Of a DNA stretch of 8,031 nt, positions 2,965-3,261 are shown piece after piece (the first letter of the stretch is position 1; each line of letters opens with the position of its first letter). Under the pieces are notes generated by a model, which was given only the letters and a program-made list of their open reading frames with translations, ran no database searches and had not been told where the DNA came from. Source of the stretch: a virus; IMG/VR virus record IMGVR_UViG_3300008249_000001, one strand, 5' to 3'. The position numbers and the translations under genes were made by a program.

Positions 2965-2987
2965 ATCTGTCACCTTTTTTAATAAAC

Positions 2988-3037
2988 GTTTCACTGTTTC
3001 ACTGTTACGCTGTAACATGATTCGCGGTAACGTTAGC
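2988..3037. promoter_or_regulatory. Operator-like repeat cluster in the divergent control region between the gV-like gene and the RHH-like gene
   Basis: There is a tandem GTTTCACT x2 (2988..3003), an inverted repeat GTTAC-gct-GTAAC (3004..3016) and a palindrome TAACGTTA (3028..3035). GTAAC/GTTAC half-sites therefore recur four times in about 33 bp. Confidence 0.5.
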
Positions 3038-3063
3038 AAAATTAACAAGGAGGTGCAACAATA

Positions 3064-3261
3064 ATGTTTCAAGTAACAAAGATGAGACAGAGAATGGCTA
3101 CTAAACCCGTAAGAATTGATCTAGATACATATGAAAAATTAGAACGGGAGGCAGTCAGGCAAACCACCGAAAAAGAGAAAATTATCCAAATTTCCACGGT
3201 GGCTAATGATATTTTAAAAGAGTTTTTTGCTTCGAAAGATGGAGGGAAAAAGAAAATATAA
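3064..3261 (+). CDS. Putative ribbon-helix-helix (Arc/CopG-like) transcriptional regulator, 65 aa; the only well-supported plus-strand gene
   Basis: It has the strongest SD in the window (AAGGAGGTG, 3047..3055, 8 nt before the ATG). KPVRIDLD (beta strand), TYEKLEREAVRQ (helix) and ISTVANDILKEFF (helix) fit an RHH layout. The fold assignment is inference. Confidence 0.65.
   Translation: MFQVTKMRQRMATKPVRIDLDTYEKLEREAVRQTTEKEKIIQISTVANDILKEFFASKDGGKKKI

What the first reader, a model, noticed from the sequence alone, without database searches (positions are those of the whole stretch)
2965..3261. A divergent RHH-like regulator is embedded antisense between rep and the structural operon, next to an operator cluster
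This is the only plus-strand gene with strong support, and it has the best SD in the genome. It starts 100 bp from the gV-like gene start and points the opposite way. The intervening region holds GTTTCACT x2, GTTAC-gct-GTAAC and TAACGTTA, which is typical operator architecture for dimer-of-dimer RHH binding. Any minus-strand transcript that links rep to the ssDNA-binding, coat and morphogenesis genes must cross this gene in antisense. Known inovirus repressors, such as rstR of CTXphi, are divergent but sit upstream of the replication gene rather than between replication and structural modules. The layout therefore suggests a switch that uncouples replication from virion production by operator occupancy, by transcriptional interference, or by both.
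Basis: partly seen in the sequence, partly recalled or inferred. Interest (0 to 1): 0.65.

Follow-up and report, generated by a model that had tools for sequence, protein, structure and literature searches.

The report
Small regulator module in filamentous phage
A real, conserved 65-residue gene lies backwards between the replication gene and the virion genes of a small filamentous phage, next to a conserved array of short DNA boxes; it is most likely a small DNA-binding switch for virion production, an unusual placement of an ordinary kind of phage regulator.

Summary
The window is a circular 7,908-nt inovirus. ORF65 (3064-3261, +) is a genuine gene. Substitutions against two relatives fall mainly on its third codon positions, and the antisense 108-aa ORF is broken by stops in those relatives. 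It has the strongest Shine-Dalgarno site in the genome.

The same layout recurs in at least eight inovirus lineages: ssDNA-binding gene, a 90-131-nt spacer, the ORF65 homologue, then the 3' end of rep arriving convergently. This holds even where the Rep family differs.

The spacer always carries GTTAC/GTAAC boxes (near-palindromic TGTWACA), mostly 8 or 15-16 bp apart.

One is a second conserved plus-strand gene, ORF38 (3313-3429, Cro-like helix-turn-helix motif). The other is a hairpin terminator (3438-3456) that closes the plus-strand operon against rep.

The ribbon-helix-helix assignment is plausible but unproven. The AlphaFold topology fits and a targeted hhalign gave P 3e-4, but there is no Pfam, PDB or significant Foldseek match.

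Best reading: an autoregulated repressor of the ssb/coat/assembly operon. No binding or transcript data exist. A published phage, PMBT54, has a non-homologous antisense gene in the same slot, so the layout is not unprecedented.

The parts
2653..2964 (-). RstB-like ssDNA-binding gene (103 aa from the ATG at 2964). It is the first gene of the ssb, coat and assembly gene string and is divergent from ORF65.
   Evidence: Pfam CTX_RstB 2.9e-14. phrog_929 6.6e-25. Homologues lie next to ORF65 homologues in L001 and L005.
2970..2976 (-). Shine-Dalgarno site (AAGGTGA) of the ssb gene.
   Evidence: Read from the sequence. An AAGG-type SD sits at the same place in the relatives.
2988..3035 (.). Operator-like array of 8-bp-phased boxes: GTTTCACT, GTTTCACT, GTTACGCT, GTAACATG, one degenerate unit, then GTAACGTTA. 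The consensus is the near-palindrome TGTWACA.
   Evidence: Searches give the positions. Enrichment P 3e-4. Densest cluster in the genome. The same boxes occur at 8 or 15-16 bp spacing in the equivalent spacer of L001, L002, L005, L008, L009 and L011, and more weakly in L006 (one exact GTTAC, P 0.2).
3047..3053 (+). Shine-Dalgarno site (AAGGAGG) of ORF65, 10 nt before the ATG.
   Evidence: SD-like sequences at the same spacing in L001, L002 and L008.
3053..3062 (+). Conserved GTGCAACAAT between the SD and the start codon. Its role is unexplained: it is one mismatch from a box, and it also reads as an extended -10 with TTAGCA 18 nt upstream.
   Evidence: Conserved in the window, L001, L002, L008 and L009.
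3064..3261 (+). ORF65, a 65-aa putative ribbon-helix-helix-like DNA-binding regulator. The conserved core is residues 11-57, with an invariant Arg17 in the predicted ribbon.
   Evidence: Third-codon-position bias and in-frame indels. A family of 10 proteins. AF2 topology. hhalign P 2.7e-4 against an RHH profile.
3313..3429 (+). ORF38, the second plus-strand gene (38 aa). Conserved motif YPELxxLAxxWGVxYxxLLxxIR, a Cro-like helix-turn-helix pattern.
   Evidence: Conserved in 7 of 8 lineages with synonymous codon changes and in different frames relative to ORF65. No Pfam or PADLOC hit.
3434..3456 (.). GC-rich hairpin (GGGGC-gga-GCCCC, 3438-3450) with A4 before and T6 after. It is the terminator of the plus-strand operon and a weaker terminator for rep, with only U4 on the minus strand.
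   Evidence: RNAfold -12.7 kcal/mol (+) and -14.5 kcal/mol (-). Equivalent hairpins with the T-run on the + side occur in L002, L005 and L009. The terminator scan missed it.
3455..5044 (-). Rep_1-type rolling-circle replication initiator, convergent with the plus-strand operon.
   Evidence: Pfam Rep_1 1.6e-12. phrog_11698 8e-58. Relatives in blackswan219-6 and PMBT54.

Best explanation
ORF65 encodes a small, probably dimeric, ribbon-helix-helix-like DNA-binding protein. It most likely binds the array of near-palindromic TGTWACA boxes, phased at 8 bp, that fills the middle of the 99-bp divergent control region. By occupying that array it would regulate its own two-gene operon: ORF65 and ORF38, closed by the hairpin terminator at 3438-3456. 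It would also control, most likely repress, the promoter of the oppositely oriented ssDNA-binding, coat and assembly operon. Rep lies in a separate minus-strand unit that ends at the same hairpin. The module would therefore set virion and ssDNA production independently of replication.

Shown: the gene is real and under purifying selection. The module and its position are conserved in at least 8 inovirus lineages. The boxes are conserved and travel with the ORF65 family, not with the Rep family.

Inferred: the RHH fold, binding to the boxes, the sign of regulation, the promoter positions and the role of ORF38.
For: Purifying selection acts on the + frame and the antisense frame carries stops in relatives. 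There is a strong SD.

The family has 10 proteins and all examined contexts are the same. The ssb-like gene is divergent across 90-131 nt, and rep is convergent downstream.

GTWAC boxes are enriched in the spacer in the window (P 3e-4) and in L001 (5e-5), L009 (3e-5), L008 (7e-4), L005 (0.016) and L002 (0.03). Spacings are 8, 15 or 16 bp. The boxes persist in L009 and L010, where rep is a Phage_CRI/gene II type instead of Rep_1. They therefore track ORF65 and not Rep.

The AF2 model from 10 sequences shows an extended segment at 11-19, a helix at 20-37, a loop, and a helix at 43-56, with pLDDT >90 over residues 21-50. Arg17 in the predicted ribbon is invariant. hhalign against a hand-aligned RHH profile gives P 2.7e-4 with the strand and helix 1 in register, while a reversed control gives P 0.43. 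The lowest-rmsd PDB matches include two RHH domains: NikR at 2.9 A over 44 columns and a TCP domain at 3.6 A over 49.

Weak promoter-like hexamer pairs on both strands overlap the box array. The terminator with its T-run on the + side is conserved in four lineages.
Against: No significant match to any RHH family exists in Pfam, NCBIfam or PDB sequences. Foldseek E-values are all >=0.19. The first AF2 model, made with 3 sequences, gave one continuous helix.

No sigma-70-like promoter reaches 9 of 12 in the spacer, so both promoters are unlocated. No transcript, protein or binding data exist. Whether the protein represses or activates is unknown. L006 has only one exact GTTAC in its spacer.
Confidence: 0.55

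Rival explanations
1. ORF65 is the phage's general immunity or lysogeny repressor, the functional analogue of CTXphi RstR, Pf4r or SW1 FpsR. It would shut down the whole phage including rep rather than specifically uncoupling virion production. Its odd position would follow only from rep sitting at the end of the circular gene order instead of at the head.
For: It is a divergent small regulator at the head of the long minus-strand gene string ssb, coat, gIII, gVI, gI, ORF132, HTH143, rep. Two one-mismatch TGTWACA boxes lie in the 134-nt spacer upstream of rep, at 5076 and 5112. No other divergent repressor is present in the genome.
Against: The two boxes upstream of rep are 36 nt apart, and two such boxes there are not clearly above the genome-wide density of one-mismatch boxes (36 in 7,908 nt). 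Strong terminators and long spacers divide the minus strand into several units: 2120-2135, 113-1031, 5045-5178 and 5611-5956. A same-strand HTH_17 protein sits directly upstream of rep and is the more obvious rep regulator.
Confidence: 0.2
2. ORF65 is not the binder of the boxes and is not a transcription factor for the ssb operon. It would be a replication or maintenance accessory, as the PMBT54 authors suggested for ORF2 from MatP and SeqA hits. The boxes would then be promoter elements or sites for a host factor or for ORF38.
For: PMBT54 ORF2, in the same slot, was assigned to the replication module. ORF38 carries a Cro-like HTH motif and could itself be the site-specific binder. RHH membership is unproven.
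Against: The boxes are present in L008, which lacks ORF38. The boxes co-occur with the ORF65 family regardless of the Rep family. The near-palindromic units at 8-bp phasing, next to the gene's own start, are the usual signature of an autoregulated small repressor. That last point rests on established knowledge of MetJ, omega, CopG and Arc.
Confidence: 0.15
3. ORF65 and ORF38 form a type II toxin-antitoxin or similar addiction pair, with an RHH antitoxin followed by a toxin.
For: Two small co-oriented genes, often overlapping, with the first RHH-like and apparently autoregulated.
Against: The conserved core of ORF38 is about 25 residues with an HTH pattern, far smaller than known type II toxins. 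There are no PADLOC or Pfam hits. ORF38 is absent in L008.
Confidence: 0.03
4. The 108-aa minus-strand ORF (3069-3395) is the real gene and ORF65 is a shadow ORF.
For: It is the longer ORF. There is a weak hit to phrog_11107, E 0.004.
Against: In L002 it is broken into 44-aa and 24-aa pieces and in L001 it is truncated. The antisense frame has stops and more non-synonymous codon changes. tblastn finds only chance hits at E 7.
Confidence: 0.02

Closest known systems
Pseudomonas phage PMBT54 ORF2 (OR047306; Viruses 2023, PMC10534721)
   Same: A 64-aa antisense gene between a Rep_1-type rep (29% identical to the window's Rep) and the ssDNA-binding gene, convergent with rep. GenBank annotates it as MatP_C (RHH-containing). 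Four 8-bp tandem repeats (TCGTGTTT) lie in the spacer towards ssb.
   Different: No detectable sequence homology to ORF65 (hhalign probability 0.4%). The repeat sequence differs. There is no ORF38 homologue. Its function was left 'elusive' and guessed to be replication-related.
P22 immI region: Arc and Mnt (ribbon-helix-helix repressors)
   Same: A small RHH repressor is the first gene of a short operon (arc-ant) that is divergent from another gene. The operators sit between the overlapping divergent promoters, and there is autoregulation. Based on established knowledge.
   Different: No sequence match. Arc binds one 21-bp operator as a dimer of dimers, not an 8-bp-phased multi-box array. The host is a tailed phage. 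The second gene, ant, is a large antirepressor.
MetJ met-box operators and omega repressor heptad arrays
   Same: Short (7-8 bp) boxes are repeated head to tail at 7-8 bp phasing. Each box is bound by one RHH dimer, and neighbouring dimers bind cooperatively. Here 4-6 TGTWACA boxes lie at 8-bp phasing.
   Different: The box sequence differs. MetJ needs S-adenosylmethionine as co-repressor. Omega controls plasmid copy number, partition and TA promoters. hhalign to MetJ and omega alone is not significant.
CopG (RepA) of rolling-circle plasmid pMV158
   Same: A 45-aa RHH repressor on a rolling-circle replicon. In the best hhalign register, ORF65 residues 12-39 align with the CopG strand and helix A.
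   Different: CopG is co-transcribed with repB and represses it. ORF65 is convergent with rep and divergent from ssb.
CTXphi RstR, and the repressors of Pseudomonas phage 17897 and Vibrio cyclitrophicus inoviruses
   Same: Divergently transcribed small repressors in inoviruses that carry an RstB-like ssb.
   Different: They are HTH (XRE-type) proteins that sit upstream of rep. In those phages rep is followed directly by rstB, with no gene between them.

Membership tests
Ribbon-helix-helix (Arc/MetJ/CopG) superfamily | Topology of an N-terminal beta-strand followed by two helices within about 45 residues. | tested here: inconclusive
   The AF2 model from 10 sequences shows an extended segment at 11-19, a helix at 20-37, a 5-residue loop and a helix at 43-56, with pLDDT >90 over 21-50. 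The 3-sequence model gave one long helix. A monomer model cannot show the strand pairing.
Ribbon-helix-helix (Arc/MetJ/CopG) superfamily | Significant sequence or profile match to a curated RHH family or a solved RHH protein. | tested here: not met
   No RHH hit in Pfam, NCBIfam or PDB sequence searches for any of the 10 members. A targeted hhalign against a hand-made 8-protein RHH profile gives P 2.7e-4 and probability 42%.
Ribbon-helix-helix (Arc/MetJ/CopG) superfamily | Structural superposition on solved RHH domains. | tested here: inconclusive
   Foldseek against the PDB finds nothing at E <= 0.001. The lowest-rmsd matches include NikR 2hza_A (2.9 A over 44 columns, TMq 0.44) and the TCP domain 5zkt_B (3.6 A over 49 columns). 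In BFVD the best E-value is 0.19, to unnamed small phage proteins.
Ribbon-helix-helix (Arc/MetJ/CopG) superfamily | Intertwined homodimer whose two-stranded ribbon inserts into the major groove. | not testable with these tools
   Only monomer prediction was available. An invariant Arg17 flanked by hydrophobic residues 16 and 18 is compatible with a DNA-reading ribbon.
Ribbon-helix-helix (Arc/MetJ/CopG) superfamily | Operator made of short repeated or palindromic sub-sites next to the gene. | tested here: met
   A TGTWACA box array at 8-bp phasing lies at 2988-3035 and is conserved in related loci. Binding itself was not tested.
Canonical inovirus repressor module (CTXphi RstR type) | HTH_3/XRE-type repressor divergent from, and immediately upstream of, rep. 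| tested here: not met
   ORF65 has no HTH_3 hit. It is convergent with rep and divergent from ssb. The canonical layout is seen.
PMBT54 ORF2-like antisense gene of the replication module | Small gene on the opposite strand between rep and the ssDNA-binding gene. | tested here: met
   Same slot and orientation.
PMBT54 ORF2-like antisense gene of the replication module | Sequence homology to PMBT54 ORF2. | tested here: not met
   hhalign probability 0.4%, E 0.14. tblastn of ORF65 against 50,697 phage records finds nothing.
Type II toxin-antitoxin pair with RHH antitoxin | Downstream partner is a recognisable toxin of about 80 aa or more. | tested here: not met
   ORF38 is 38 aa, has no Pfam or PADLOC hit, and is absent in L008.

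The most novel reading that the evidence does not exclude
ORF65 and ORF38 form a previously unrecognised two-protein switch specific to a lineage of non-integrating, plasmid-like inoviruses. The RHH-like protein would silence the ssDNA-binding, coat and assembly operon while Rep keeps the replicative form going, giving a silent episomal carrier state. The tiny HTH-like ORF38 peptide would act as its co-factor or anti-repressor. In the lineages where the cassette overlaps the 3' end of rep (L006, L008, L013), convergent transcription would feed back on rep.
Probability: 0.2. Interest if true: 0.6.

Novelty: new variant of a known kind. Interest (0 to 1): 0.42.

Why it matters
Most inoviruses known from metagenomes have no understood control of the choice between silent carriage and virion secretion. 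The textbook models (CTXphi RstR, Pf4r) place the repressor upstream of rep.

This module is different. It is a rare, unannotated protein family: 10 clusters among 5.8 billion proteins. It has a clear, conserved box array and a partner micro-gene, and it sits at the head of the ssb/virion operon in a clade with Rep_1-type or gene II-type initiators.

If it represses only that operon, it offers a simple, testable example of replication being regulated separately from virion production in a chronic phage. It would also give a function to the unexplained antisense gene in the same slot of the cultured phage PMBT54.

If it is just another autoregulated small repressor, the result is useful annotation but not surprising.

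Tried and rejected
- **Known-phage matches.** A near-identity search of the whole window and tblastn of ORF65 against 50,697 phage records found nothing. A distant blastn of 2940-3460 gave only chance hits.
- **Family searches.** Pfam, PHROGs, NCBIfam, PADLOC and PDB sequence searches of ORF65 and its relatives gave no meaningful family. A recurrent sub-threshold AEP_C962R hit (17.5 bits against a cut-off of 23) comes from three members that are about 75% identical to the window protein, so I dismissed it.
- **Antisense ORF.** The weak phrog_11107 hit to the 108-aa ORF was followed up and rejected.
- **Further loci.** The search for related loci with Rep or ORF65 in representative genomes, IMG/VR and JGI metagenomes found no new loci beyond L008/L018. 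Two calls errored. The host therefore remains unknown.
- **Structure searches.** Foldseek against the PDB and BFVD was not significant. The BFVD match to a 'putative regulator' of Alteromonas phage phiAFP1 led to a phage whose unknown ORFs lie upstream of rep, so it is not the same layout.
- **RNA families.** The Rfam scan showed nothing at the locus.
- **Promoters.** The sigma-70 consensus scan found no promoter at 9 of 12 in the spacer. Relaxed scans gave only 7-9 of 12 candidates. A minus-strand promoter-like site at 3282-3255 lies in a spacer that relatives lack, so I treat it as chance.
- **Frameshift fusion.** A frameshift fusion of ORF65 and ORF38 is rejected for the window, because two in-frame stops separate them.

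Full report
**What the window is.**
The window is a complete inovirus genome. Its first and last 123 nt are identical, so the circle is 7,908 nt, and GC content is 36.6%. Nearly all genes are on the minus strand:
- an RstB-like ssDNA-binding gene (2653-2964; Pfam CTX_RstB 2.9e-14)
- small coat genes, and a gIII-like gene (1032-2102)
- a gVI-like gene (7517-7855) and a Zot/gI gene (6345-7520)
- two unknown or HTH genes
- a Rep_1-type rolling-circle initiator (3455-5044)

No near relative exists among 50,697 deposited phage genomes.

**Checking the observation.**
- ORF65 runs 3064-3261 on the plus strand.
- AAGGAGG lies at 3047-3053, 10 nt before the ATG. It is the strongest SD among the twelve main ORFs.
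- The ssb gene starts at 2964 on the other strand, leaving a 99-nt spacer.
- The spacer holds GTTTCACT twice (2988-3003), GTTAC-gct-GTAAC (3004-3016) and TAACGTTA (3028-3035).

GTWAC occurs 3 times in these 99 nt against 10 times in the remaining 7,932 nt (P 3e-4). The spacer holds the densest cluster of TGTWACA-like boxes in the genome, a density reached in 2 of 300 Markov simulations.

**Which strand codes.**
ORF65 has relatives at about 75% BLASTP identity over the conserved core (62-68% over the full alignments), on two short metagenomic contigs, L001 and L002. I compared the 45-codon core.
- Substitutions fall on plus-frame codon position 3 in 19 of 31, 27 of 44 and 25 of 47 cases.
- There are 13-21 synonymous codon changes per pair and no stops.
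- The antisense frame carries stops in both relatives.
- The 108-aa antisense ORF is split into 44-aa and 24-aa pieces in L002 and truncated in L001.
- The N-terminal extension differs among relatives only by in-frame indels.

The plus-strand gene is therefore real, and the antisense ORF is a shadow. Its weak PHROG hit has no counterpart in tblastn.

**A conserved module, larger than the finding.**
Profile searches of 1.8 and 5.8 billion proteins recover only 6 representatives and 10 clusters respectively. Every context I could read has the same layout. These are L001, L002, L005, L006/L007, L008, L009/L010 and L011/L013/L014. In each, an ssb-like gene on one strand is followed by a 90-131-nt spacer, then the ORF65 homologue on the other strand, then the 3' end of rep arriving convergently.

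In L009 and L010 rep is a Phage_CRI/gene II type instead of Rep_1. The cassette is therefore not tied to one replication system.

The first is ORF38 (3313-3429). Its motif is YPELxxLAxxWGVxYxxLLxxIR, which by my reading resembles the helix-turn-helix of lambda Cro. It is conserved in seven of eight lineages, with synonymous codon differences. It lies in different reading frames relative to ORF65 in different loci, so it is a selected peptide. L008 lacks it.

The second is a GC-rich hairpin (GGGGC-gga-GCCCC, 3438-3450) with A4 before it and T6 after it. It sits between the ORF38 stop and the rep stop, with folding energies of -12.7 kcal/mol (+) and -14.5 kcal/mol (-). Equivalent hairpins occur in L002, L005 and L009, always with the good T-run on the plus-strand side. 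This is indirect evidence for a plus-strand transcript that must be stopped before it enters rep. In L006, L008 and L013 the cassette instead overlaps the rep 3' end by about 40 nt or less (4 nt in L013).

**The boxes.**
The spacers of all eight lineages contain GTTAC or GTAAC, with variants GTTTC and GTAAT. Centre-to-centre spacing is mostly 8 or 15-16 bp. Per-locus enrichment P-values range from 3e-5 to 0.2.

The unit is the near-palindrome TGTWACA, so 'direct' and 'inverted' copies differ only in the central base. The window has four consecutive units, one degenerate unit and a fifth.

This resembles the MetJ met-box or omega heptad type of operator, with one dimer per short box and cooperative arrays. 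That comparison rests on established knowledge. It fits better than a simple dimer-of-dimers site.

The boxes persist across changes of the Rep family, across ssb genes too diverged for the RstB model or tblastn to detect (L006, L008, L013), and in the absence of ORF38 (L008). ORF65 is therefore the most economical candidate binder.

**Is it ribbon-helix-helix?**
Sequence searches say nothing. There is no RHH hit in Pfam, NCBIfam or PDB sequences for any member.

An AlphaFold model from three sequences gave one long helix. With ten sequences the model shows an extended segment at 11-19, a helix at 20-37, a five-residue loop and a helix at 43-56. pLDDT is above 90 over residues 21-50 and pTM is 0.53. 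This is the RHH topology with a slightly long helix 1.

Foldseek is not significant. The lowest-rmsd PDB matches include the RHH domain of NikR (2.9 A over 44 columns) and a TCP domain (3.6 A over 49). The best BFVD matches are unnamed small phage proteins at E 0.19.

hhalign against single RHH proteins was insignificant. Against a hand-aligned profile of eight classical RHH proteins it gave P 2.7e-4 and probability 42%, with the strand and helix 1 in register. A reversed control gave P 0.43.

The predicted ribbon carries the family's invariant Arg17 between hydrophobic positions 16 and 18. I rate RHH at roughly two in three.

**Promoters and transcription units.**
No site in the spacer reaches the 9-of-12 consensus threshold. 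Relaxed scans give two plus-strand candidates.
- TTCACT-17-TAACAT lies about 46 nt upstream of the ATG, with its -10 inside a box. It recurs at 45-53 nt in L001, L002 and L008.
- TTAGCA-18-TGcAACAAT has a -10 that would place the transcription start after the first Met.

The second candidate overlaps the conserved GTGCAACAAT (3053-3062), which I cannot explain. Minus-strand candidates, such as TTAATT-17-AATCAT at 53 nt from the ssb ATG, also overlap the array but are weak.

The hairpin directly after rep has four U residues on the minus strand. A strong terminator follows gVIII at 2120-2135. Together these suggest several minus-strand units. If so, the ssb operon needs its own promoter in this spacer. 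That makes independent control of the virion arm architecturally plausible without invoking interference with a rep-to-ssb read-through transcript.

**Comparison with known systems.**
Inoviruses with RstB-like ssb genes in GenBank show the canonical order: divergent repressor, rep, then rstB immediately. Examples are Pseudomonas phage 17897, the Vibrio cyclitrophicus phages and CTXphi.

The two GenBank phages with the closest Rep proteins both have something in the same slot.
- PMBT54 (29% Rep identity) has ORF2, a 64-aa antisense gene annotated 'MatP_C domain'. The paper reports MatP and SeqA hits and calls its function elusive. Four 8-bp tandem repeats, TCGTGTTT, lie towards ssb.
- blackswan219-6 (34% Rep identity) has an unannotated antisense 129-aa ORF with weak HTH_3 and CI-repressor hits.

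Neither is homologous to ORF65. The slot therefore appears to be a conserved regulatory position in this clade, filled by different small DNA-binding proteins. It is not a one-off.

**Verdict.**
The module is divergent spacer with box array, ORF65, ORF38, then terminator.

A small DNA-binding regulator acting on the box array is the best reading (about 0.55). RHH membership is plausible but unproven. The 'uncoupling' mechanism is inference only.

It is a new variant of a well-known kind, the autoregulated small phage repressor with a repeated operator. The novelty lies in an unannotated family and an unusual but not unprecedented position.

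Noticed in passing
window 1-123 and 7909-8031: An exact 123-nt terminal repeat. The window is a circular 7,908-nt genome with an assembly overlap, so hairpin 90-112 is the same as 7998-8020.
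   Followed up: yes
window 3313-3429 (+): ORF38 is a second conserved plus-strand micro-gene with a Cro-like HTH motif (YPELxxLAxxWGVxYxxLLxxIR). It is present in 7 of 8 lineages and usually overlaps the 3' end of the ORF65 homologue in another frame. Only 4 clusters exist in 5.8 billion proteins.
   Followed up: partly
window 3053-3062: GTGCAACAAT between the SD and the start codon of ORF65 is conserved at the nucleotide level in five lineages. In L009 it lies 29 nt upstream of the start. With TTAGCA 18 nt upstream it reads as an extended -10 promoter whose start site would skip Met1. Unexplained.
   Followed up: partly
window 5697-5734 and 5915-5952: A 38-nt direct repeat (84% identical, 218 nt apart) in the spacer between the 132-aa ORF and the HTH_17 gene. 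It may be an origin, iteron or attachment element.
   Followed up: no
window 113-1031: About 0.9 kb without any ORF longer than 45 aa, containing an inverted repeat at 451-467/517-533. It is the likely intergenic region for origin and packaging signal. No pC194-type CTTGATA nick motif occurs anywhere in the genome.
   Followed up: partly
window 7859-7987 (-) and 1032-2102 (-): By eye, the 42-aa ORF resembles the C-terminal membrane anchor of the gIII-like protein (FIRLxxLITAxxTCRxxIFG). The gIII-like protein contains about five tandem repeats of roughly 23 aa (ELTxxEQC...YWYNNTCND).
   Followed up: no
L004 (PMBT54) 1765-1796: Four 8-bp tandem repeats, TCGTGTTT/A/G, between antisense ORF2 and the ssb gene. 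They are a positional analogue of the window's box array and overlap the annotated ORF3, which may be spurious.
   Followed up: partly
L003 (phage blackswan219-6) 863-1252 (-): An unannotated antisense 129-aa ORF with weak HTH_3 and CI-repressor hits (E about 0.01) in the rep-to-ssb slot. It overlaps the annotated rep 3' end by 224 nt.
   Followed up: partly
L006 5667-5846, L008 1532-1574, L013 3156-3159: In three lineages the plus-strand cassette overlaps the 3' end of rep convergently, with no terminator between them. Convergent transcription or antisense effects on rep are therefore possible there.
   Followed up: no
window 5179-5610 (-): A 143-aa protein with an N-terminal HTH_17/excisionase-like motif (E 4e-4, below the Pfam cut-off) and a coiled-coil tail lies directly upstream of rep on the same strand. 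It has a weak PADLOC mad1 hit (1e-4). It is a likely rep-side regulator.
   Followed up: no
window 3438-3456: The terminator scan did not list this clear hairpin with its T6 run, although it appears to fit the stated criteria. It was found by reading the sequence and confirmed with RNAfold.
   Followed up: yes
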